Shown: piece by piece, positions 1-27,053 of the stretch
Numbering within the stretch: position 1 is the stretch's first letter
How the letters are laid out: each line of letters starts with the position of its first letter
DNA from: Shigella phage Henu12
DNA length: 64,000 nt
Direction: 5' to 3' (one strand)
Sequence record: OQ834936
Made by a program: the position numbers and the translations under genes
The notes under the pieces: generated by a model
The model's input: only the letters and a program-made list of their open reading frames with translations
Told to the model about the DNA's origin: nothing
Database searches by the model: none

Positions 1-229
1 CTTCGGTCTCGCTGTCCAGCTTAAGGGTAACATCAAAGGACACTTTAAATTTCTTCGTGATAGCCATAATAATTTCTCCTATAGAATTAGTGACATACGG
101 CCCAATTAGGCCCCATCTTACAGCAGATTCTTTTCCGTTGTCAACCACTTTACCATTTAGTTTTTTAGCAGTTGCGCGAGCGTCATCACGAGATTTTGCA
201 GATACAATGATGTTTTTGATAGTAGCCAT
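1..229 (-). CDS. hypothetical early protein, 3'-truncated by window edge (starts MATIKNIIVSAKSRDDARATAKKLNGKVV...)
   Basis: Minus-strand ATG at 227-229 preceded by GGAG RBS inside a conserved leader; frame stays open to position 1. Not in the ORF track because it runs off the window. Confidence 0.4.
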   Translation of the reverse strand, partial: MATIKNIIVSAKSRDDARATAKKLNGKVVDNGKESAVRWGLIGPYVTNSIGEIIMAITKKFKVSFDVTLKLDSETE

Positions 230-319
230 TTTGATACTCCAGTTTAGGTTGATTGTTGGTAAAGCTCTTTATCTGGGGCTTATCTTATCTAACTATAAAC
301 CCCATGTAAAGGACTTTAT
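230..319 (-). promoter_or_regulatory. repeated intergenic cassette copy A1: sigma70-like promoter (-35 TTTACA 310-305, 17-nt spacer, -10 TAAGAT 287-282), stem-loop, conserved leader with GGAG RBS
   Basis: Near-identical element recurs at 701-784 and partly at 1166-1200; hairpin GGGGUUUAU/AUAAGCCCC shows a compensatory base-pair change relative to copy A2. Confidence 0.5.
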
Positions 320-700
320 TTAATTAATTTTGAAAACTGTAACGTAGCCGTCACTACCAATAGTTTGGGATACTCCAGCTTTCTCTACATCATACCCCAT
401 TTTATCAAGATGATACATTGCATCTTCATATCCATATTTTCCGCCTTGATAGCGTCTTTTTTCGCATCGTATCACAGTTTTACCACGTCCTGCAATAGCA
501 TTTATGATAGCTTTTTCACCGGATAATGTACCGTCAAGCATAGTAGCTTTGTAGTGGTTGATACGGTTACCATTAACATCATACTTAAAATTGTAAGCGT
601 GAACAACAATTATTTTTCCTTTGAAGTTTTCTTTCATAGTTTCCTCTAAGATACTACGAAAGTTTTCTTTGTTGATAAATTTAGGCGCACGATATTTCAT
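320..700 (-). CDS. hypothetical protein (126 aa)
   Basis: ORF track; start directly preceded by conserved leader and GGAG RBS; co-oriented with neighbours. Confidence 0.55.
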   Translation of the reverse strand: MKYRAPKFINKENFRSILEETMKENFKGKIIVVHAYNFKYDVNGNRINHYKATMLDGTLSGEKAIINAIAGRGKTVIRCEKRRYQGGKYGYEDAMYHLDKMGYDVEKAGVSQTIGSDGYVTVFKIN

Positions 701-784
701 TTCAGATTCTCCAGTTTAGGATTGTTGGTAAAGCTCTTTATCTGGGGCTTAAGATACTAGCTTTTAAACCCCATGTAAAGTACT
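701..784 (-). promoter_or_regulatory. repeated intergenic cassette copy A2: promoter (-35 TTTACA 779-774, -10 TATCTT 756-751), stem-loop 745-772, conserved leader/RBS
   Basis: Direct repeat of the 230-319 element; conserved tail CCAACAATCCTAAACTGGAGAATCTGAA immediately before the ATG. Confidence 0.5.
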
Positions 785-946
785 TTATGCAATAATTTTT
801 ATAAAATCTTTCATGGTTATTTTATCGCCATTTGTAAGGGCTACACAATTATTACCCATAGCAGATTTATAGAGATAGAAGACTTTACCAATTTTTGGGT
901 ATCCGTCTAAATCTTTGTATTGTATTACATCGTTTTCTTTAATCAT
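785..946 (-). CDS. small hypothetical protein (53 aa, MIKENDVIQYKDLDGYPKIGKVFYLYKSAMGNNCVALTNGDKITMKDFIKIIA)
   Basis: Hand translation of minus strand; ATG 944-946 with GAAGG RBS; stop 785-787 abuts cassette A2. Below the track's 60-aa cutoff. Confidence 0.4.
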   Translation of the reverse strand: MIKENDVIQYKDLDGYPKIGKVFYLYKSAMGNNCVALTNGDKITMKDFIKIIA

Positions 947-958
947 TGTCAAGCCTTC

Positions 959-1165
959 TTAAACGTTGTAATAATAAATTGCTGTATGTCTTGTAAACTG
1001 TCTTGTATGATTTGTCAAGTAACAATCTGACCTGATTGACGTATTAACATATTTATCAAAATCTTTTTCTGAGATACGTTGCCAAACATCACAAATTAGC
1101 ATATAGAAACGACGTTTATTTGTTTTGTTGTTGTCAACAATCATTAACTCACGTTGATATAACAT
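959..1165 (-). CDS. hypothetical protein (68 aa)
   Basis: ORF track; preceded by the conserved leader/RBS (copy A3). Confidence 0.5.
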   Translation of the reverse strand: MLYQRELMIVDNNKTNKRRFYMLICDVWQRISEKDFDKYVNTSIRSDCYLTNHTRQFTRHTAIYYYNV

Positions 1166-1200
1166 TTTCAGATTCTCCAGTTTAGGATTGTTGGGATGTT
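1166..1200 (-). promoter_or_regulatory. partial copy A3 of conserved leader/RBS (CCAACAATCCTAAACTGGAGAATCTGAAA-ATG)
   Basis: Third occurrence of the leader, with a different upstream region. Confidence 0.45.
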
Positions 1201-1214
1201 TCCCGTTGATGCAA

Positions 1215-1243
1215 ATACTATAAGACTGGATTTATGAAGTCAA
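1215..1243 (-). promoter_or_regulatory. sigma70-like promoter (TTGACT-N17-TAGTAT) heading the small early gene block
   Basis: Read on minus strand: -35 at 1243-1238, -10 at 1220-1215; lies about 50 nt upstream of the 1165 start. Confidence 0.4.
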
Positions 1244-1412
1244 CAAAATTTTTAAAAATATTTTTGATGTTTCGTGAATAGAACGCACGTATGCGGATAC
1301 ACTAAAACAGGAATCTAGTCAAGAATTATTTTTGAGTTCTCTACAAATTTTTATCTTGACTTTTGGGAGGAAGGGGAGTAAGAGGGGATGGTGGGGCTGG
1401 TTTCCTACAGCT

Positions 1413-1650
1413 ACCTACCTGCACAAACTGAAAATGAATTTTCCCTTTGGAGTCCAACTGCATCTGCACAGATTGAAAATGAAAAACCCCTTTGGAGTCT
1501 AAACCTGCACAAATTTGAAATGAATTTTCCCTTTGGAGTTCAGCTAAAGAAATCTGTCCAGAGTTCTATGCAACTATACCTGCACAAATTTAAAATGAAA
1601 AAGCCCTCCTTACCTGAGATTTTAAACTCAAACTTTGGAGGGCTTGTCTA
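1413..1650. repeat. tandem array of four imperfect direct repeats of about 45 bp (core CTGCACAAAtTtGAAAATGAAttTTCCCTTTGGAGT), last unit ending in an inverted repeat
   Basis: Units start near 1418, 1463, 1504 and 1578; intergenic between the 959-1165 gene and the macro-domain gene. Confidence 0.7.
1590..1650 (-). terminator. putative intrinsic terminator downstream of macro-domain gene (stem AAGCCCUCC/GGAGGGCUU then U-rich run)
   Basis: Inverted repeat 1602-1610/1635-1643 followed on the minus-strand RNA by UUUUCAUUUUAAAUUU; the loop is large so efficiency is uncertain. Confidence 0.35.
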
Positions 1651-1669
1651 TGTTTATCTGGGTAACTTA

Positions 1670-2464
1670 TTAGTTACGTGCTTCAACATAGTTTACGTTT
1701 TCATGTGTGATATAATCTTCTGCAAACTCTTCTGTAGTCGCATTGATATATACACTTGCATCATCGCCAAACGTTACCGCTCTGTGGTGGTGGCCTTGTA
1801 ACGGGTGGGTAACTTGAGCGTTACTTCGATTGTACTTCTCAACCGGAGGGTAACTGGTGTGTACCTTGCCATTACGCTTCACCTTGAGGGTAACTTTATC
1901 CTTGCCTACCACAGCAACACCATCAAAGTATTGAGGCTCACTGAAGTTCTCCCAACCAGTAACAGGACTAGTCAACTGACTGTACATCTTATCTTCATAG
2001 ACATACATATAAACGTCAACATCCTTCATAGTCTGGTTGATAATGGACAGTACAGCCATGCTATCAAGACCACCAATCCCTGCACCAATCATCGGAAGCC
2101 CAACTTTCTTAAGTTGATTAACTTTACAGTAGTTGTTAAGACGCTGTAAAGCTGCTTCTAAGGCGTTGTATCGTGCATCTTTGCCAGTGATAACCTGAGT
2201 GTAAAGGTTAGCAATTCGACCCTGCTTAAAACGTGCTACAGAGATGTTACCAAGCATTAGATGCTTAGGGTTATGATTTTCACCACCTACTGTAGCATAA
2301 ACTTCAGCGTCAGTTTCATAAGCTTTTGGGTAGCGTTTAGCAATTGTTGCTGCGATACCTGCTGGCATCAAGTTCATGCAGTTACAACCGTGACCAATGA
2401 TATCAAACTTCTTACCATCAAAATCTTTAAAGATATCACCTTTAATAATTTTTACGATACCCAT
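1670..2464 (-). CDS. macro-domain protein, TARG1/DarG-like (putative ADP-ribose glycohydrolase) with C-terminal extension
   Basis: Motifs GHGCNCMNLMPAGIAATIAKRYP and GLPMIGAGIGGLD resemble the TARG1 HCISEDCRMGAGIA and PRIGCGLD signatures. Start moved to internal Met (MGIVKIIKGDIF) with GGGAG RBS and ATGA overlap with the upstream stop; the track ORF extends to 2521. Confidence 0.6.
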   Translation of the reverse strand: MGIVKIIKGDIFKDFDGKKFDIIGHGCNCMNLMPAGIAATIAKRYPKAYETDAEVYATVGGENHNPKHLMLGNISVARFKQGRIANLYTQVITGKDARYNALEAALQRLNNYCKVNQLKKVGLPMIGAGIGGLDSMAVLSIINQTMKDVDVYMYVYEDKMYSQLTSPVTGWENFSEPQYFDGVAVVGKDKVTLKVKRNGKVHTSYPPVEKYNRSNAQVTHPLQGHHHRAVTFGDDASVYINATTEEFAEDYITHENVNYVEARN

Positions 2465-2465
2465 A

Positions 2466-2666
2466 TTAGTAATGCTCCCAACGTTCGTTATCTTCAGATG
2501 GTTTAACTCGGTTACCTTCATGGTCTACCCATAAAGCACCGCAACCTTCACAGATTACTGGCATTGCTGAACCAGCTTTAAATTCTGCCTTTGTAAAGAG
2601 ACCTTTTAAGTCTCCTGTATCTTTTCCAAACATCTCAACAGAACACTTAGTGCAGAAATCAGCCAT
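2466..2666 (-). CDS. small zinc-ribbon protein (CxxC...CxxC)
   Basis: ORF track; two Cys pairs (CTKC, CEGC). Confidence 0.5.
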   Translation of the reverse strand: MADFCTKCSVEMFGKDTGDLKGLFTKAEFKAGSAMPVICEGCGALWVDHEGNRVKPSEDNERWEHY

Positions 2667-2880
2667 TTGATATTACCTCTTGGAAGTATGTATGATTACT
2701 GGTGAAAGTCTGTTTAAAACTTTCAACGTTTGAACGTAAGAAGCCTTCATCTAAATAATATTTGAAGGTTTCTTTATGTGAGAAAACCTCGGTAAACGGG
2801 ATTACTTCACTTCTCCCTACATAGATACCAGATGCTATAATTTGCCGTGTCTTTTTATTTCTGACGATTAGAACTTTCAT
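2659..2880 (-). CDS. hypothetical protein (73 aa)
   Basis: ORF track; co-oriented and tightly packed. Confidence 0.45.
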   Translation of the reverse strand: MKVLIVRNKKTRQIIASGIYVGRSEVIPFTEVFSHKETFKYYLDEGFLRSNVESFKQTFTSNHTYFQEVISNG

Positions 2881-3181
2881 ACATTACCTTTTCAGTTAGT
2901 TGATATAAGTCTACATGTTCAATGCCAACAATGTCAATACCAATTTTAGCGTAACGCTCTTTGATATCATTGTCGTTCATCCAAACGAGACACCAATGAT
3001 TTCTAACAGACTCTTCGAGCTTATGTACACAATCTTGGAATGTTGGGGTATCGCCTCTTGTACCAATCATGGCGATTACACCATATAGAAACTCACCATT
3101 GCCATATGTCACTTGGGCTACACCAATATCTTTCTCATTATCTGAGAAGACGGCTACAATGGTTTTACCATTAAGTTCCAT
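2855..3181 (-). CDS. hypothetical protein (108 aa)
   Basis: ORF track. Confidence 0.5.
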   Translation of the reverse strand: MELNGKTIVAVFSDNEKDIGVAQVTYGNGEFLYGVIAMIGTRGDTPTFQDCVHKLEESVRNHWCLVWMNDNDIKERYAKIGIDIVGIEHVDLYQLTEKVMYESSNRQK

Positions 3182-3337
3182 TATAGATTACCTCTTTAAT
3201 TTGTTGTAAGATTGCTTCTGAAGCTTCTTCCCATAAGGTAGAGTTTTCAATTGAATCTTTAACCTGTGCAATACCAATATTAAAACGGGTATCACCATAC
3301 TCTTCAATCAAGTTAAGAAGCTTCTGTTTGTCCACAA

Positions 3338-3607
3338 TCACTTCCTCGTTTTAAGGACTGCATAGATTTCTTTAGACTCTTCTCCGAACCATGTGTAGTG
3401 ATTCTCGTTGATTTCAGGATGGTTGTCAACACGTATTTTGCAATCTCTTCCAACATGTTTAAGTTGTGCAGAAACACCCTGCATAAAGATGTGACAAGTT
3501 ACATCATCCATAACCGTTGGCATAATGTCAAATCTCATGTAAGTGTTATTTGGTCTTGGTAACAGAAGATAACCTTCCACAAAAAATGTTTCATTCTTCT
3601 CTGTCAT
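3338..3607 (-). CDS. hypothetical protein (89 aa)
   Basis: ORF track; overlaps the downstream gene start by 4 nt. Confidence 0.5.
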   Translation of the reverse strand: MTEKNETFFVEGYLLLPRPNNTYMRFDIMPTVMDDVTCHIFMQGVSAQLKHVGRDCKIRVDNHPEINENHYTWFGEESKEIYAVLKTRK

Positions 3608-3873
3608 TGCTGCCTATTCCCTAACAAAATCATATCAATTAAATTGTTTGCCTTAATAGTACATTCATAGTAACCATCACGATAAAACTCAAGAGCACTT
3701 GCAAGGTCTTCACCTTTAGTGCCTTTAACCTCATATCGTGCTTCTTCTTGAGTGTACTTGTCACTCTCACTTACTTGGGAGTTTTTGAAGGTACTGTTCA
3801 CTTTGTTCGTTGAACACCCTGACATAAGGCTCAGTAGCACAATCATTAATAAAGACTGTCTTAGTTTTTTCAT
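3604..3873 (-). CDS. putative o-spanin (outer-membrane lipoprotein; signal peptide ending LMSGC)
   Basis: Lipobox-like signal; gene starts inside the 3' end of the upstream TM/coiled-coil gene in another frame, as in Rz/Rz1. Confidence 0.5.
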   Translation of the reverse strand: MKKLRQSLLMIVLLSLMSGCSTNKVNSTFKNSQVSESDKYTQEEARYEVKGTKGEDLASALEFYRDGYYECTIKANNLIDMILLGNRQQ

Positions 3874-4114
3874 AGTTCAATACCTCTTTGGTGTGTTTGT
3901 TTTTAGCAAGCACATCTTTCAAATCATTTTTGTAATTGGAGCTAAGATTTGATAAACCTTCTTGATAAGCATCTTTAGCAACACTTACAAGTCTCTGGTT
4001 AGTTAACTCCTTTTCATTAACTTGACTGGTCTTGTAAGTGTAACCTCCCCAAGCACCAACACCTATTAAGAAAATGATTACAAAAGCTGCTTGACAAAAT
4101 TCTTTAAACGTCAT
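3767..4114 (-). CDS. putative i-spanin (N-terminal TM helix plus periplasmic domain)
   Basis: N-terminal hydrophobic helix FVIIFLIGVGAWGG; overlaps the lipoprotein gene by about 107 nt. Confidence 0.5.
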   Translation of the reverse strand: MTFKEFCQAAFVIIFLIGVGAWGGYTYKTSQVNEKELTNQRLVSVAKDAYQEGLSNLSSNYKNDLKDVLAKNKHTKEVLNYEKTKTVFINDCATEPYVRVFNEQSEQYLQKLPSK

Positions 4115-4130
4115 TTAACTTCTCCTAGAA

Positions 4131-4156
4131 ATGAAAAAGGCTCCCGAAGGAGCCTC
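4131..4156 (-). terminator. intrinsic terminator GGCUCC-UUCG-GGAGCC plus U5
   Basis: Perfect hairpin with UUCG tetraloop and U-tract on the minus-strand RNA, just downstream of the 4167-4631 gene. Confidence 0.7.
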
Positions 4157-4166
4157 TATAATAACT

Positions 4167-4631
4167 TTAACCAAGAACTTTCGCAAGGACATTTGCTGCC
4201 ATTGTTGAGGCTTTTGAAGCAGCAGCTACGCCAGCCTTAATGGTATTATCCTTAATCGCAGAAACCGTTGCAGTATCTGTGAAGAGGTAAGTGGTAGTCT
4301 GAGAACCACTTGTAAAGGAAAGCATAAGAGCAGTTTCCAGATTGAAAGAACGGTAAGGAGCACCGGATTGTACAATCCCTTTTGCACCTAACTCTGAAGC
4401 CATACCCATATCATAGATAGTCATCAGATTTTCTTTATGAGCAGTAGTTGAACCAACACCTTTAACGTGTTTTGTGACATTCAACATTGCACGATACTCA
4501 CGAATGTTACCATCAGCTTTCACGTTTACTGCACGAAAGATTTTACCATCGAAATTACTTTTGATAATCTCACGAACTATCTGTGATTTGTTACCGGAAG
4601 CATCGATAGCTACTGTAATAATATTTTGCAT
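4167..4631 (-). CDS. hypothetical protein (154 aa)
   Basis: ORF track; followed by a terminator. Confidence 0.5.
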   Translation of the reverse strand: MQNIITVAIDASGNKSQIVREIIKSNFDGKIFRAVNVKADGNIREYRAMLNVTKHVKGVGSTTAHKENLMTIYDMGMASELGAKGIVQSGAPYRSFNLETALMLSFTSGSQTTTYLFTDTATVSAIKDNTIKAGVAAASKASTMAANVLAKVLG

Positions 4632-4642
4632 GGTTTACTCTC

Positions 4643-5338
4643 TCAGTTTTTAACAAGCATTGTTTTGATGTGTGGTAAGATTCTTTCAACCTTTGCCACG
4701 TTCTTCACTGTATCTTCTATAAAGCATACTACATCATAGTAAGGTAGAATGCAAGACTGAAGCATACGAACTTTCAAACTTTCTGCACTAATCTCATTGT
4801 CACCAAATCCACGCATAAACAGTAGGAAATCACTGTCTACATTCTCATTCAGGAAAAGATGTGTGACAACTCTTTGTGATTCTCCACGAGCAGTTAAGAA
4901 TCCTATATCAGCATTTCTTGATATACCACACAGGATGTTAAAAACATATGTTGGTTTAGCTCTGCGAGAGTCTACCAAGTTAGTATACTGTGAGTAAGTA
5001 CCATCATCTAACAAAGTTGCATTAAGCTCCTTATTAAAGCTTGTAAGAACACCGTCAATGTCTGCTAAGACCATTTTACGTTTTTCTTCCAAGTTCTTTG
5101 CAACCAAGATAAGGCTGTTACGACCAACATCTACAGTTTTACCTGTTAGCAAATCCTGACAAGGAATCTGTGTCTTTGTTGAGTGGAAGTCTTCAAATCT
5201 ACACACAACATTTCTTGCTGTATCTGCAAAGTCAGCTTTAGCAATATCTGACCAACTTGCAGAACTGATATCTAAATCAAGTGGCTTAATATCATAAGCA
5301 TGACACAGAACCATATCAAATTGTTTTGATTCGCTCAT
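4643..5338 (-). CDS. HAD-superfamily phosphatase-like protein
   Basis: Motif LADIDGVLT (DxDGxL/T), the HAD motif I. Confidence 0.45.
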   Translation of the reverse strand: MSESKQFDMVLCHAYDIKPLDLDISSASWSDIAKADFADTARNVVCRFEDFHSTKTQIPCQDLLTGKTVDVGRNSLILVAKNLEEKRKMVLADIDGVLTSFNKELNATLLDDGTYSQYTNLVDSRRAKPTYVFNILCGISRNADIGFLTARGESQRVVTHLFLNENVDSDFLLFMRGFGDNEISAESLKVRMLQSCILPYYDVVCFIEDTVKNVAKVERILPHIKTMLVKN

Positions 5339-5864
5339 ATTTTACCTTTTTAATGTTTGTTGCAAACTCACATTGAGCAAGCAGTTTCATGTTATTGTAC
5401 ACATCTTGAGAGTATTGTCTAGCCTTTGGAATCTTGTATTTGTAACCAGCATTATAAGAAGCTAGGACACGCTTCATAGAGTACTTTCCATCTGGGTTAC
5501 CATGAACCTTAGTCCAGAATAATAGCTCCTTATGAGCCTCTTTCGCTGAGTAATGGAAGTCACTTACTAGCTTCTTCTTAGCAACCTTTGGAGATACCTT
5601 GTTACGCTTTACAACAGTCTTCAAGTGATTTTGGAAAACACCATAATCATGAGTCTTTTTATTTTCTAACATGACACCTAATTGTGACTCTTGTAAGGCT
5701 ATAGCTGCTAAAGGGATTCCCCAACCTTTTCCCATCTGTCCTTCGCCATAGTTATATGCTTTTAACATATTAACTTTCTGGCTGATTGTAAGCTCTGGAC
5801 AGTCAGACGCTGTAGCTAAATGTGCTGTAAAGAATAAGCACAAACCTAAAACAAATTTCTTCAT
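5316..5864 (-). CDS. secreted lytic transglycosylase (SLT domain), candidate endolysin
   Basis: Signal peptide MKKFVLGLCLFFTAHLATA; SLT-like motifs ES, YGVFQ and YNAGY; start set at Met9 with AGGAG RBS (track start 5888). Confidence 0.55.
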   Translation of the reverse strand: MKKFVLGLCLFFTAHLATASDCPELTISQKVNMLKAYNYGEGQMGKGWGIPLAAIALQESQLGVMLENKKTHDYGVFQNHLKTVVKRNKVSPKVAKKKLVSDFHYSAKEAHKELLFWTKVHGNPDGKYSMKRVLASYNAGYKYKIPKARQYSQDVYNNMKLLAQCEFATNIKKVKYERIKTI

Positions 5865-5920
5865 TTGCACTCCTATTTTGTTAAACATGCAGATAATTAT
5901 ACACTAACCTGCACATTTTT

Positions 5921-5950
5921 CAAATAAAAAAGGCTGCCGAAGCAGCCCCT
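5921..5950 (-). terminator. intrinsic terminator GGCUGC-UUCG-GCAGCC plus U6
   Basis: Hairpin and U-tract on minus-strand RNA downstream of rIIB. Confidence 0.7.
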
Positions 5951-5965
5951 TTAGGAATTTACTTA

Positions 5966-7087
5966 TTAAACTTCACGTTTACGCTGAGAAATCAGTTCAC
6001 CAGCAGTACCTACAACTACGTGAAGTGCTTCTGAACCATCCCACTCTTTGATGATTTCACGGCGACTATTTACAATCGCTGCAACTTCATAACGGGAAGC
6101 TCGCATTTTCATGTCGTTGTAGTCAGTTGGTACTGAAACAACATCACGAGGATGAACACGAACTTTCAGGATAGTGTCACCAGAGAAGCTAGTTACATAA
6201 TCCCAAGCACCAACGTGCAGACCCTGAGAGCAGGTTACATGGCGGTTATTATCAACCATCCAACGTGGCATCTCTACAATGTTACCCAAATCATTTGGAA
6301 CTTTGCAGGTACGAGAGTCAAACAGTTTACCACCACGAGTTGTGACTTTCTTCCAACCGATGATATAACCTTCTTCATCAATTTCAACATCGAGGTGTGA
6401 TACGAAGCCCCAAAGTTGTTCTACAGAGTCTTTTGATGGGTTTTCCATCAGTTTTTCAAAGAATGCAATCAGTCGAACAAAGCCATTATCACCTTTCTTC
6501 ATCATATCCAGAATACGGTCTACCAGAGTTGAGCGCATCTGAACAGCACCGTAATACAGGTTGTCACCTTTGATGGTTACAGCACCTTGAGTGAAGTTCT
6601 CAATAGACTTGCGAATGTTCATCAGTTCAAAAGCTTTCTTGTACTCACCTGAAACAACAGCCATTACAATATCAGTGTAGTTAGGGTGAGTTGACTCAAC
6701 AATCTCAGACTCTGCACCGAAAGTCATGATAACAGAATCACCAGTAATCATGTATTCAATCTGGCTGTTATTCTGCATTGCTTCATGCAGAGCATTTACA
6801 GGTTCTGCTTTGACTGCTTCTTTAACAGCTTTTGCAACAGGTTTCTGCTTAGATACCTTCTTGGTCGCTTTAACTTTCTTAGCACTCTTTGCAATATCTT
6901 TCAGAGTCTTTGCAGGTTTTGCTTTGGTTTTCCCTGACAGCAGCGTTGCTTCATGGCGCTCTACAGCACGACCTACCGAACGGGTTGAAGTGTTATACTT
7001 CAGAGCGATTGCAGTTTTGGTCAGTTTACCTTCTTTAACCAGTGCATAGATTTCTGCGTCGATTTGTGCTTTAGTCTTAGTAGTCAT
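5966..7087 (-). CDS. rIIB: rIIB-like protein
   Basis: C-terminal half matches remembered T4 rIIB blocks (LVDRILD, ENPS, KVHPRDVVS-P-DYND-KMR); lies directly downstream of rIIA as in T4. Confidence 0.8.
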   Translation of the reverse strand: MTTKTKAQIDAEIYALVKEGKLTKTAIALKYNTSTRSVGRAVERHEATLLSGKTKAKPAKTLKDIAKSAKKVKATKKVSKQKPVAKAVKEAVKAEPVNALHEAMQNNSQIEYMITGDSVIMTFGAESEIVESTHPNYTDIVMAVVSGEYKKAFELMNIRKSIENFTQGAVTIKGDNLYYGAVQMRSTLVDRILDMMKKGDNGFVRLIAFFEKLMENPSKDSVEQLWGFVSHLDVEIDEEGYIIGWKKVTTRGGKLFDSRTCKVPNDLGNIVEMPRWMVDNNRHVTCSQGLHVGAWDYVTSFSGDTILKVRVHPRDVVSVPTDYNDMKMRASRYEVAAIVNSRREIIKEWDGSEALHVVVGTAGELISQRKREV

Positions 7088-7130: not shown

Positions 7131-7159
7131 ATTCTAAGGGGCTTTTCAGCCCCTGTCAA
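7131..7159 (-). promoter_or_regulatory. sigma70-like promoter TTGACA-N17-TAGAAT upstream of rIIB, with the GGGGCUGAAAAGCCCC palindrome in the spacer
   Basis: -35 at 7159-7154, -10 at 7136-7131; 16-nt palindrome at 7138-7153. Confidence 0.45.
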
Positions 7160-9540: not shown

Positions 9541-9573
9541 AAGAATATCTCCTTAGTTGTCGATGTGGCAAAC

Positions 9574-9601
9574 TATATAATTTTATAGATGCCACTGTCA
9601 A
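9574..9601 (-). promoter_or_regulatory. sigma70-like promoter TTGACA-N16-TATATA for rIIA
   Basis: -35 at 9601-9596, -10 at 9579-9574, then AGGAGA RBS and the rIIA ATG at 9540. Confidence 0.55.
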
Positions 9602-16044: not shown

Positions 16045-16108
16045 TGTGGTATCTTCAATAAAAAAGGTGATGCAAGCCTATCAAGACCTACACCACCTTG
16101 TCAACTAC

Positions 16109-27024: not shown

Positions 27025-27053
27025 ATCTTACAGACTTCGTACTCCCTTGTCAA
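27025..27053 (-). promoter_or_regulatory. sigma70-like promoter TTGACAAGG-N-TAAGAT upstream of the SSB candidate
   Basis: -35 at 27053-27048, 17-nt spacer, -10 at 27030-27025. Confidence 0.45.

What the first reader, a model, noticed from the sequence alone, without database searches (positions are those of the whole stretch)
230..1200. Repeated promoter/stem-loop/leader cassettes separating small early genes, with compensatory base changes in the stem
Seen: elements at 230-319 and 701-784 (partial third copy 1166-1200) share, on the minus strand, a -35 TTTACA, a stem-loop overlapping the promoter spacer, and an almost identical leader CCAACAATC...CTAAACTGGAG(A/T)ATC..AAA-ATG. The stems are GGGGUUUAU/AUAAGCCCC in copy 1 and GGGGUUUAA/UUAAGCCCC in copy 2, so pairing is kept by a compensatory change, arguing for selection on RNA structure. 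Established (from memory): T4-type phages carry repeated promoter-early-stem-loop cassettes in hyperplastic regions that promote modular gene shuffling. Inference: these are analogous mobile regulatory cassettes.
Basis: partly seen in the sequence, partly recalled or inferred. Interest (0 to 1): 0.6.

Follow-up and report, generated by a model that had tools for sequence, protein, structure and literature searches.

The report
Repeated promoter-hairpin-leader cassettes, Felix O1-type phage
The short repeats between small early genes of this Felix O1-like phage are composite promoter + RNA-hairpin + ribosome-binding-leader cassettes, built like the "PeSL" cassettes of T4-like phages, that mark the points where gene modules are swapped, duplicated or lost, which extends a known design to a second phage group.

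Summary
On the minus strand, window 790-698 and 320-227 are two copies of an about 90-nt cassette. A third copy (1243-1163) shares only the leader and belongs to a second cassette class. The window is a Mooglevirus (Ounavirinae; 100% identical to Shigella phage Henu11) and it cuts the cluster. Henu11 has six full copies, and blastn finds 1,456 places in 287 Ounavirinae genomes. In all 57 copies from 10 genomes in four genera, TTTACA, a 17-nt spacer and TAnnnT are present. The -10 lies inside the loop and 3' arm of a 9-bp hairpin. That hairpin is 99% paired, shows double-sided changes at 4 of 9 pairs, and folds better on the sense strand (U.G pairs). An unstructured GGAG leader follows. This matches the published PeSL anatomy, which I checked directly on RB49, but there is no detectable sequence homology. 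Unrelated ORFs occupy one slot between conserved cassettes, and some indels are flanked by leader repeats. Promoter and attenuator activity are inferred; no transcript maps were found. The Felix O1 genome paper listed the core only as an uninterpreted 57-bp direct repeat. Verdict: a new member of a known kind, of moderate interest.

The parts
698..790 (-). Class-1 cassette, copy upstream of the 126-aa gene (320-700): the whole unit from the upstream stop/A-rich box to the ATG
   Evidence: Sequence read; nhmmer profile hit (equivalent Henu11 copy L001 3680-3594, E 5.7e-26); folds at -22.2 kcal/mol, z -3.7
780..788 (-). A-rich upstream box ATAAAGTAC. It contains the stop codon TAA (787-785) of the upstream 53-aa gene. 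Read as an UP-element-like region, and possibly the 5' strand of an outer RNA helix
   Evidence: column conservation; outer-helix counts
774..779 (-). -35 hexamer TTTACA
   Evidence: Invariant in 57/57 copies; listed by the promoter scan
751..756 (-). -10 hexamer TATCTT (TAnnnT), 17 nt after the -35; lies in the loop and the 3' arm of the hairpin
   Evidence: T-12, A-11, T-7 at 2.0 bits each
764..772 (-). Hairpin 5' arm GGGGTTTAA (in the promoter spacer)
744..752 (-). Hairpin 3' arm TTAAGCCCC (end of the -10 plus a GC-rich discriminator)
743..743 (-). Inferred transcription start (the A after the C-run, 7 nt after the -10)
   Evidence: Inference from geometry. A (53 copies) or T (4 copies) lies 6-8 nt after the -10 in 57 copies. 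Not mapped experimentally
727..742 (-). Nearly invariant downstream box GATAAAGAGCTTTACC (first transcribed bases). It can pair with the -35/upstream box in read-through RNA
701..726 (-). Shared leader AACAATCCTAAACTGGAGAATCTGAA with SD GGAG (712-709); ATG at 700-698
   Evidence: (D10); unstructured 5' UTR
227..320 (-). Class-1 cassette, copy upstream of the MATIKN gene. Sub-parts: -35 310-305; -10 TAAGAT 287-282; arms 303-295 and 283-275; inferred +1 at 274; box 273-258; leader 257-230; SD 240-237; ATG 229-227
   Evidence: -21.1 kcal/mol, z -5.4
1163..1243 (-). Class-2 cassette. Sub-parts: TTGACT 1243-1238; 17-nt spacer; TAGTAT 1220-1215; small 5'-UTR hairpin GGGA 1204-1201 / TCCC 1196-1193; the same leader 1192-1166; SD 1178-1175; ATG 1165-1163 of the 68-aa gene
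   Evidence: 36 copies of this class in the 10 loci
7131..7159 (-). A sequence-unrelated promoter-hairpin composite in the rIIA/rIIB gap: TTGACA-GGGGCTgaaaAGCCCCt-TAGAAT, with the hairpin filling the spacer as in RB49 PeSLs
9572..9601 (-). Intergenic promoter TTGACA-18-TATAGT with embedded hairpin GTGGCA/TGCCAC (same layout as class 1)
27025..27053 (-). Intergenic promoter TTGACA-17-TAAGAT with embedded hairpin AGGGAGTAC/GTACTCCTT (same layout as class 1)
5896..5923 (-). Intergenic promoter TTGAAA-16-TATAAT with embedded hairpin (TGCAG/CTGCA), directly after a canonical terminator

Best explanation
These are the intergenic regulatory cassettes of the early, hyperplastic small-gene cluster of Felix O1-type phages (Ounavirinae). 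They are built like the PeSL (promoter-early stem-loop) cassettes of T4-like phages.

A class-1 cassette packs four things into about 90 nt:

1. A host sigma-70 promoter of the T4-early type: an A-rich upstream box that also holds the upstream gene's stop codon, TTTACA, exactly 17 bp, TAnnnT (often preceded by G at -14), a GC-rich discriminator, and a start at the A after CCCC.

2. A 9-10-bp hairpin. Its 5' arm is the first half of the spacer. Its 3' arm is the end of the -10 plus the discriminator.

3. A nearly invariant initial transcribed box, AGATAAAGAGCTTTACC.

4. A shared, unstructured A/C-rich leader with GGAG placed 7-9 nt before the ATG.

The hairpin lies upstream of the cassette's own inferred start, so it can exist as RNA only in transcripts that arrive from the cassette upstream. 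There it sits just after the upstream gene's stop codon. Its most likely action is to attenuate read-through, or to cap and stabilise the upstream message. That would make each small gene its own insulated unit.

Many near-identical cassettes lie in tandem, so they are also substrates for homologous recombination. This deletes, duplicates or replaces gene modules and partly homogenises the cassettes.

Shown here: the motif conservation, selection on pairing, the strand bias, the cassette-bounded module changes, and the architectural identity with RB49 PeSLs. Inferred: promoter activity, the start site, the hairpin's action on RNA, and recombination as the cause of the module changes.
For: Distribution. 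There are 1,456 places in 287 Ounavirinae records. Six full copies lie within 3.4 kb of Henu11. I collected 57 full copies from 10 genomes in four genera.

Promoter. TTTACA-17-TAnnnT is the only promoter-like arrangement present in 57/57 copies. T-12, A-11 and T-7 carry 2.0 bits, flanked by 0.2-0.6-bit loop positions. G at -14 occurs in 48/57, and A or T lies 6-8 nt after the -10. The same -35 and spacer form the published T4/PST PeSL consensus TTTACW-N17-TAYWAT (PMC4122927). In Felix O1, ORF16 and ORF20, which sit directly behind two cassettes, are maximal at 5 min after infection (PMC3185647 Table 3).

Hairpin. 99.0% of cells are paired. Four of nine pairs show changes on both sides. Sliding the partners gives 31-57% paired. 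RNAalifold recovers the structure independently. There are 10 stem haplotypes with 8-9 of 9 pairs. U.G at pair 5 occurs in 42/53 copies, and the sense strand is more stable in 42/47 (-13.8 against -10.7 kcal/mol).

Leader. It is unstructured (-3.5 and -5.0 kcal/mol, z about 0 to 1).

General design. 9 of 23 intergenic promoter-like sites in the window hold an embedded hairpin, against 3% of 120 coding-region sites (Fisher p = 2.5e-6).

PeSL anatomy. It is stated in PMC2839356 and visible in RB49 itself.

Shuffling. Three unrelated 82-aa ORFs occupy one slot between conserved cassettes. A deletion is flanked by the leader repeat (HP1 against SUSP1). Michonne has a 430-bp cassette-plus-gene tandem duplication, 425/430 identical. 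75% of 92 breakpoints lie within 30 nt of a cassette, against 25% for random positions. Some cassettes are 100% identical to a paralog in their own genome but only 70-83% identical to orthologs in other genera.
Against: - No transcript 5' or 3' ends are available for any Ounavirinae phage in the searchable literature.
- The hexamers match the sigma-70 consensus at only 9 of 12 positions.
- The invariance of CTTTA could owe something to RNA pairing rather than to -35 function (helix 2).
- The hairpin is not followed by a U-tract, and the terminator scan does not call it on the sense strand. It is therefore not a canonical intrinsic terminator. The RB49 211/210 stem-loop, reported to terminate well, also lacks a U-tract.
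- Felix O1 ORF17, which sits behind a cassette, peaks at 25 min rather than 5 min.
- The null in the breakpoint test is generous, because almost every intergenic gap in the cluster holds a cassette, and the genome pairs compared are not independent.
- Several covarying sequences share descent. All Erwinia copies carry the same G-C to U-A change, so independent events are fewer than the cell counts suggest.
- In class-2 cassettes a similar G4/C4 hairpin lies downstream of the promoter. The hairpin's role may therefore not be tied to the upstream message.
Confidence: 0.72

Rival explanations
1. RNA-processing site. In read-through transcripts the hairpin extends through CTTTA/TAAAG and TAAAG/CTTTA into an irregular helix of about 21 bp with small internal loops. 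RNase III, or another double-strand-specific nuclease, cuts it, as at the T7 early R-sites. This would chop the nested early transcripts into monocistronic mRNAs that end in a protective hairpin.
For: RNAalifold predicts the three-helix fold on its own. Single copies fold that way at -21 to -25 kcal/mol. The outer helix shows G-C to U-A changes in 7 sequences from at least two cassette positions, and is 94% paired. The sense strand is favoured for the extended fold as well (41/47). No U-tract follows the hairpin. A macro-domain gene lies directly upstream of the cluster; I recall that the E. coli macro-domain protein YmdB modulates RNase III (from memory, not tested).
Against: The middle helix never varies, so it is uninformative, and it coincides with the -35. 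The base before GGGG varies among T, A, G and C without compensation. 11 of 53 copies break the outermost pair. Class-2 cassettes and the other promoter-hairpin sites lack the extension. The upstream box is equally well explained as an A-rich UP-like element, which RB49 PeSLs also have (AAAGTTG-TTGACA).
Confidence: 0.15
2. DNA-level control element. The inverted repeat (as a cruciform or a protein-bound palindrome) together with the two TAAAGnnCTTTA palindromes, which lie over the -35 and around +10, are operators for a phage or host protein that switches the early promoters off or on.
For: The repeat lies entirely within the promoter core. Two similar palindromes sit at about -38 and +10, which are typical repressor positions. 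The box around +10 is more conserved than the stem.
Against: Stems of different sequence coexist within one genome while pairing is kept: five haplotypes in Mooglevirus. That argues for nucleic-acid pairing rather than recognition of one sequence. U.G pairs become A.C mismatches on the other strand, so a symmetric cruciform or palindrome is disfavoured. Class-2 cassettes lack the +10 box.
Confidence: 0.1
3. Passive repeats. The copies are only leftovers of recent tandem duplications of gene-plus-upstream-region, with no selection on the stem or the promoter.
For: Tandem duplication does occur (Michonne, 425/430 identical). Some copies are identical within a genome.
Against: The cassettes precede unrelated genes. 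They persist across four genera, where flanking sequence falls to about 70% identity or is unalignable. They show compensatory changes and position-specific conservation.
Confidence: 0.03

Closest known systems
PeSL (promoter-early stem-loop) cassettes of T4-like phages RB49/phi1, T4/PST and KVP40/nt-1 (Arbiol et al. 2010, PMC2839356; Comeau et al. 2014, PMC4122927)
   Same: - Intergenic position between small ORFans of a variable early region.
- The upstream stop codon sits in an A/T-rich box.
- A sigma-70-type promoter with a 17-nt spacer (the T4/PST type is TTTACW-N17-TAYWAT).
[quoted passage not shown]
- SD plus ATG at the 3' end.
- Several positional subclasses.
- Association with module indels and replacements between close relatives.
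   Different: - The host phage is an Ounavirinae myovirus, not a T4-like phage (Straboviridae).
- There is no detectable sequence homology (nhmmer E >= 0.05 in both directions, the same as controls).
- These cassettes carry an extra invariant 17-nt box after the start site and a much longer conserved leader.
- The copies are more uniform than in RB49.
- Promoter activity, terminator activity and mini-circles were shown experimentally for RB49 and phi1, but not here.
'57-bp direct repeats' of phage Felix O1 (Whichard et al. 2010, PMC3185647)
   Same: The same sequence family. The repeat printed in that paper, CTTTACATGGGGCTTAAAAGTCTGTAAAGTAAGCCCCAGATAAAGAGCTTTACCACT, is the core of the Felix O1 class-1 cassettes at L003 8625 and 10294.
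   Different: The paper lists them only as direct repeats between genes 15/16 and 19/20. It gives no promoter, structure or recombination interpretation, and it states that secondary promoters and temporal control are unknown. The third Felix O1 copy, the family-wide distribution and the covariation were not noted.
[quoted passage not shown] 2015, PMC4309531)
   Same: A repeated intergenic motif containing TTGACA-N17-TAgAAT, 5-6 copies, in a variable, putatively early region of myoviruses that paper grouped with Felix O1-like phages. There is unusual conservation around the hexamers.
   Different: No stem-loop or shared leader is described, and the sequences are unrelated.
T7 early RNase III processing sites (R0.3-R1.3)
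   Same: Irregular hairpins between consecutive early genes. They would leave a 3' hairpin on the upstream message (from memory).
   Different: T7 sites are not fused to promoters. Cleavage is not shown here, and covariation supports only part of the extended helix.

Membership tests
PeSL cassettes (T4-like phages) | A sigma-70-like early promoter (-35, about 17 nt, -10) in every copy | tested here: met
   TTTACA-17-TAnnnT in 57/57 copies; T-12, A-11 and T-7 at 2.0 bits. The same -35 and spacer as the T4/PST PeSL consensus. This is sequence evidence only; activity was not assayed.
PeSL cassettes (T4-like phages) | [quoted passage not shown] | tested here: met
   The ATAAAGTnC box precedes the -35. 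Stop codons lie at window 787-785 and 322-320. Compare RB49 taaAAAGTTG-TTGACA.
PeSL cassettes (T4-like phages) | A stable stem-loop, often G-run/C-run with G-T pairs, between the -35 and -10 or overlapping the -10 | tested here: met
   GGGG.../...CCCC 9-bp stem; 5' arm in the spacer, -10 in the loop and 3' arm; 99% paired with 4 covarying pairs; U.G in 42/53 copies.
PeSL cassettes (T4-like phages) | Shine-Dalgarno sequence and start codon of the downstream gene at the 3' end | tested here: met
   GGAG lies 7-9 nt before the ATG in all Escherichia, Shigella, Salmonella and Citrobacter phage copies; AAGGA in most Erwinia phage copies.
PeSL cassettes (T4-like phages) | Preferential location between small ORFans of a hyperplastic (variable) region | tested here: met
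   All copies lie in one 4-8-kb cluster downstream of the macro-domain gene. The window genes have PHROG families of unknown function and no Pfam hit. Gene content differs between relatives.
PeSL cassettes (T4-like phages) | Insertions, deletions and replacements between close relatives are bounded by the cassettes | tested here: met
   Three unrelated ORFs in one slot with conserved flanks. Deletions flanked by 21-31-nt leader repeats. Felix O1 lacks two modules between cassettes. 75% against 25% of breakpoints lie near cassettes, but the null is generous.
PeSL cassettes (T4-like phages) | The stem-loop acts as a transcription terminator or attenuator | not testable with these tools
   No U-tract follows the stem, and the terminator scan does not call it. 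The RB49 211/210 stem-loop, reported to terminate efficiently, also lacks a U-tract.
PeSL cassettes (T4-like phages) | Recombination between neighbouring cassettes yields mini-circles | not testable with these tools
   Requires inverse PCR on infected cells or virions.
PeSL cassettes (T4-like phages) | Membership of the described sequence families, or residence in a T4-like genome | tested here: not met
   The phage is Ounavirinae. nhmmer of either profile against the other group gives E = 0.04-6, the same as a control region. It therefore works like a PeSL but is a separate sequence family.
Canonical intrinsic (Rho-independent) terminator | A GC-rich hairpin followed directly by a U-tract | tested here: not met
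   The stem is followed by AGAUAAAGAG. The cassettes are not listed on the minus strand by the scan, while true terminators in the window are, for example 4157-4136.
RNase III processing site (T7 R-site type) | About two turns of irregular dsRNA between cistrons, supported by covariation | tested here: inconclusive
   A three-helix fold is predicted. The outer helix covaries partly, the middle helix is invariant, and the junction positions do not covary.
Rfam RNA families | A match to any curated covariance model | tested here: not met
   No meaningful hit in window 1-2600 at E <= 1.

The most novel reading that the evidence does not exclude
The cassette carries two codes in one stretch of sequence. 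As DNA it is a sigma-70 promoter. As RNA in transcripts arriving from upstream, it folds with its flanking TAAAG/CTTTA boxes into a helix of about 21 bp, which would be a specific processing signal (RNase III-type). Initiation of one message and 3'-end formation of the previous one would then be encoded by the same about 65 nucleotides. The promoter hexamers themselves would be constrained by RNA pairing: CTTTA of the -35 pairs with TAAAG at about +4 to +8 (window 740-736), and T(-7) pairs within the stem.
Probability: 0.15. Interest if true: 0.65.

Novelty: new member of a known kind. Interest (0 to 1): 0.45.

Why it matters
Felix O1-type phages are classic Salmonella diagnostic phages and are common candidates for therapy and biocontrol. 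Their own genome paper states that their early transcription signals and temporal control are unknown.

The finding does four things:
- It assigns promoters, likely start sites and translation leaders to about 10-18 small early genes per genome in roughly 290 sequenced phages.
- It shows that the PeSL design (promoter, embedded hairpin and leader, doubling as recombination linkers) is not peculiar to T4-like phages. The design recurs, without sequence homology, in a second myovirus lineage. This supports the view that it is a general solution for plug-and-play early gene modules such as host-takeover or anti-defence ORFans.
- It offers a clean, many-copy natural experiment on a hairpin constrained at once by promoter function and by pairing.
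- The cassettes are ready-made insertion points and expression signals for engineering these phages.

Tried and rejected
- **Alternative promoter.** I tested the upstream TAAAGT box as the -10, which would put the hairpin in the 5' UTR as in class 2. No conserved -35 lies upstream (mostly 2-3 of 6 matches). Rejected as the main promoter.
- **A second promoter in the downstream box.** TTTACC-17-GAATCT matches only 2 of 6 positions in the -10, and the transcript would start at or after the ATG. Rejected by inspection.
- **Homology to RB49 PeSLs.** nhmmer in both directions was not significant.
- **Rfam.** No match.
- **Canonical terminator.** No U-tract.
- **N4-type hairpin promoters.** From memory these need a 3-nt loop and the phage's own RNA polymerase. 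Here the loop is 10-11 nt, and the Felix O1 paper reports no phage RNA polymerase. Not pursued.
- **Literature.** Searches for transcript maps of Felix O1-like phages, or for an earlier PeSL-type description in them, found nothing. A 2026 preprint on promoter-terminator coupling could not be read.
- **MAFFT register.** MAFFT put the one-base length difference inside the 3' arm, which would have broken the pairing register. I removed one central loop base from the longer class instead.
- **Orthology against paralogy.** The result was mixed. Family 7 and 13 cassettes track orthology, while family 5, 20 and 22 cassettes match paralogs. I therefore claim only partial homogenisation.
- **T7-like/Mooglevirus junction.** I searched for it in viral and genome contig collections and found no match.
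Full report
**What the window is.** Megablast of window 1-6000 finds Ounavirinae phages. Shigella phage Henu11 (Mooglevirus) is 100% identical from about position 110 onward, and Sf17/Sf18, Michonne, Mordin, SUSP1 and others are 85-98% identical. The far end of the window is also 100% Henu11. Genes in the first 8 kb run on the minus strand. Going down the coordinates they are rIIA, rIIB, a lysozyme-like gene, polynucleotide kinase, spanins, several small genes, a macro-domain gene (1670-2521) and then the small-gene cluster that holds the finding.

**Checking the observation.** On the minus strand the copy at 790-698 reads ATAAAGTAC-TTTACA-T-GGGGTTTAA-aagctagtatc-TTAAGCCCC-A-GATAAAGAGCTTTACC-AACAATCCTAAACTGGAGAATCTGAA-ATG. 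The copy at 320-227 reads the same way, with stem GGGGTTTAT/ATAAGCCCC and a 3-nt insertion in the leader. The promoter scan lists TTTACA-17-TATCTT (779-751) and TTTACA-17-TAAGAT (310-282). The leader also occurs at 1194-1166, 29/29 identical to 728-700 (family D10). Chance is excluded: the leader pattern is expected 0.01 times, and the two copies fold at -22.2 and -21.1 kcal/mol with z = -3.7 and -5.4.

**The element is a family, and the window cuts the cluster.** blastn with the 93-nt cassette finds 1,456 places in 287 phage records, about five per genome and up to eleven. They include Felixounavirus, Mooglevirus, Suspvirus and the Erwinia Kolesnikvirus phages. In Henu11 the 3 kb beyond window position 1 hold four more full copies and two more leader-only copies. 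I fetched the cluster from ten genomes. A profile built from the six Henu11 copies finds 57 full copies.

**Anatomy from 57 copies.**
- TTTACA is invariant. The spacer is always 17 nt. The hexamer after it is always TAnnnT (TAAGAT, TATCTT, TAGTAT, TAAAGT, TAATCT, TATATT, TAATAT, TAGGAT).
- Anchored on TTTACA, positions -12 T, -11 A and -7 T carry 2.0 bits, while the three bases between them carry 0.2-0.6 bits. No other -35/-10 arrangement is shared by more than 5 copies.
- G at -14 occurs in 48/57 copies. An A (53 copies) or T (4) follows the C-run 6-8 nt after the -10. This is the geometry expected of a start site, so window 743 and 274 are the inferred +1 positions.
- The upstream A-rich box contains or abuts the stop codon of the upstream gene (787-785 and 322-320).
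- The RNA from the inferred start through the first codons is unstructured (-3.5 and -5.0 kcal/mol, z about 0 to 1), as a good translation-initiation region should be.

**The stem is under selection for pairing, on the sense strand.** I aligned 53 distinct copies in register, removing one central loop base from the 66-nt class.
- The 9-bp stem is paired in 99.0% of cells.
- Four pairs change on both sides: G-C to U-A at pair 3 in all Erwinia phage copies, U-A/A-U at pairs 7 and 8, and five pair types at pair 9.
- Sliding the 3' partners by 1-3 columns drops pairing of the whole structure from 97.9% to 31-57%.
- There are ten stem haplotypes. Eight are paired at 9 of 9 positions and two at 8 of 9.
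- Pair 5 is U.G in 42 copies and C-G in 11. On the opposite strand U.G becomes an A.C mismatch. Accordingly the sense strand folds better in 42 of 47 distinct copies, -13.8 against -10.7 kcal/mol.

This asymmetry, and the coexistence of different stems in one genome, argue for an RNA (or sense-strand) structure rather than a protein-recognised palindrome or a symmetric cruciform. Two cautions apply. Copies are related by descent, so the number of independent events is smaller than the cell counts. The shuffle control is also not a probability.

**Consequence of the geometry.** The 5' arm lies directly after the -35, and the 3' arm ends one base before the inferred start. The hairpin is therefore not in the transcript made from its own cassette. 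It can only be transcribed by polymerases coming from upstream, and then it lies a few bases after the upstream stop codon. It is not followed by a U-tract and the scan does not call it a terminator, whereas canonical terminators elsewhere in the window are called. RNAalifold extends the fold through CTTTA (the -35 region) paired with TAAAG (window 740-736, about +4 to +8), and through the upstream TAAAG paired with the downstream CTTTA. The middle helix never varies, so it says nothing either way. The outer helix shows G-C to U-A in seven sequences but is broken in others. The extended fold is therefore possible, not established.

**A second class, and a general design.** The 'partial third copy' belongs to a class of 36 copies in the ten loci. 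Its layout is TTGACA/TTGCAA/TTGACT-17-TAAAGT/TAGTAT, then ACTCATCAAC, then a small GGGG...CCCC hairpin that here lies in the 5' UTR, then the same leader. The window's copy spans 1243-1163.

Elsewhere in the window, five intergenic minus-strand promoters of unrelated sequence carry an embedded hairpin, at 5923, 7159, 9601, 16104 and 27053. Those at 5923, 9601 and 27053 have the class-1 geometry. The one in the rIIA/rIIB gap is TTGACA-GGGGCTgaaaAGCCCCt-TAGAAT. The one at 16104 is followed by T6 and so is a true terminator overlapping a promoter-like match. Overall, 9 of 23 intergenic promoter-like sites have an embedded hairpin of -7 kcal/mol or better, against 3% of 120 coding-region sites (Fisher p = 2.5e-6).

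**Comparison with PeSLs, checked rather than recalled.** Arbiol et al. 2010 define PeSLs by these features:
- Repeated intergenic motifs of the hyperplastic regions of RB49 and phi1.
- A sigma-70 promoter with an AT-rich region that holds the upstream stop codon.
- A stem-loop, often polyG...polyC with G-T pairs, most commonly placed between the -35 and -10 or overlapping the -10.
- The SD and ATG at the 3' end.

They showed promoter and terminator activity in reporters, and mini-circles formed by recombination between neighbouring PeSLs. Comeau et al. 2014 give TTTACW-N17-TAYWAT as the T4/PST PeSL promoter consensus, and claim PeSLs only for T4-like phages.

I printed the RB49 intergenic regions. 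The 206/205 region is taaagttg-TTGACA-ggggatcggtgatcccc-TATAAT-...ggagaatcaaaaatg. Regions 193/192, 199/198, 205/204 and 186/185 have the 5' arm in the spacer, the -10 in the loop and the 3' arm before the start, exactly as here. The RB49 211/210 stem-loop that the authors found to terminate efficiently also lacks a U-tract. Profile searches in both directions show no significant sequence similarity between the two families (E = 0.04-6, like the control). The resemblance is therefore architectural, not a matter of shared sequence family.

**Shuffling.** Gene order in the cluster is broadly syntenic, but it differs by modules.
- Felix O1 lacks two cassette-plus-gene modules that Meda and LTH02 have. 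The junction falls within a cassette.
- Michonne carries a 430-bp tandem duplication of cassette plus gene, 425/430 identical, joined at ...AAAATG|CTTTACA.
- HP1 has lost one gene together with the promoter and hairpin part of the next cassette, by an event whose ends lie in the shared leader.
- One slot, between a class-2 leader and the next class-1 cassette, holds three mutually unrelated 82-aa ORFs in different phages, with conserved flanks.
- In the Erwinia phages the modules F5, F20 and F8 keep their cassettes but stand in a different order.

Of 92 breakpoints from nine genome pairs (not independent), 75% lie within 30 nt of a cassette or leader, against 25% for random positions. That null is generous because almost every intergenic gap holds a cassette. 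Some cassettes are identical to a paralog in their own genome while 70-83% identical to the orthologous cassette in another genus. Others follow orthology. Homogenisation is therefore partial.

**Experimental hints and prior description.** The Felix O1 genome paper printed the core as 'two 57 bp direct repeats' between genes 15/16 and 19/20, without interpretation. It did not list them among its predicted promoters, and it said that secondary promoters and temporal control were unknown. Its RT-PCR table puts ORF16 and ORF20, the genes directly behind those repeats, among the genes maximal at 5 min. ORF17, behind the third cassette, is maximal at 25 min. I found no transcriptome or start-site data for this phage group, and no paper linking PeSLs to it. 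PAK_P1-like Pseudomonas phages have an analogous repeated 41-nt promoter motif without a described hairpin.

**Verdict.** The elements are PeSL-type composite cassettes of Felix O1-like phages. They form a separate sequence family in a phage lineage where such cassettes had not been recognised. Sequence evidence is strong for a sigma-70 promoter and for selection on a sense-strand hairpin. Comparative evidence is clear that they bound gene-module changes. Activity as promoter and attenuator, the exact start site, and the hairpin's mode of action (attenuation, 3' protection or processing) remain inferences.

**Scores.** Best-explanation confidence is 0.72. Interest is 0.45. Novelty is 'new member of a known kind'.

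Noticed in passing
window 1-121: The first 121 bases are not Ounavirinae. They are 99.2% identical to T7-like phages (N30, C5, phiA1122) and cover the end of the gene 5 DNA polymerase and the start of the gene 5.5 H-NS inhibitor. Mooglevirus identity begins at about 110-111, so the two share about 11 nt. The junction lies inside the 85-aa ORF driven by cassette copy 1, creating an in-frame chimera. No record in the phage collection carries both parts, and the junction is absent from the viral and genome contig collections. A read-length chimeric contig end from a mixed lysate seems most likely; a real capture of a T7-type gene is not excluded.
   Followed up: partly
window 1417-1620 (minus strand; between the macro-domain gene and the first cassette): An array of four units of about 43-45 nt (TRF: period 45, 2.9 copies, 75% matches). 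Each unit has a small hairpin ACTCC-AAA-GGGGT, a T-run, and a TTTTCA-N17-TATAGT-like segment containing TTGTGCAGGT. The first unit follows the real terminator of the macro-domain gene. The same TGTGCAGGT motif sits in the promoter-hairpin site at 5923-5896. The units look like degenerate, gene-less terminator/promoter modules, but an origin or iteron function is not excluded.
   Followed up: partly
window 1360-1395 (minus strand): A pyrimidine-rich, G-free tract, CCCCACCATCCCCTCTTACTCCCCTTCCTCCC, in the non-coding gap upstream of the class-2 cassette. This is unusual for a phage of this group (Felix O1 is 39% G+C). It might be a Rho-utilisation-like site or a protein-binding site.
   Followed up: no
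L002 (Citrobacter phage Michonne) 6997-7856: A 430-bp tandem duplication of cassette plus the 85-aa gene (425/430 identical). It leaves two cassettes back to back with no gene between them, joined at the ATG of one leader and the CTTTACA of the next.
   Followed up: yes
window 16060-16104 (minus strand): A canonical terminator (a long GC-rich hairpin plus T6) directly after the stop codon of the upstream gene. It overlaps a TTGACA-18-TAGGCT promoter-like match, so it is a terminator-promoter overlap of the ordinary kind.
   Followed up: partly
window 1670-2521 (minus strand): A macro-domain protein (Pfam Macro, E 8e-7; PHROG 'phosphatase') is encoded directly upstream of the cassette cluster in all genera examined. 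One relative's annotation calls it a possible RNase III inhibitor, which is of interest only if the RNA-processing rival is true.
   Followed up: no
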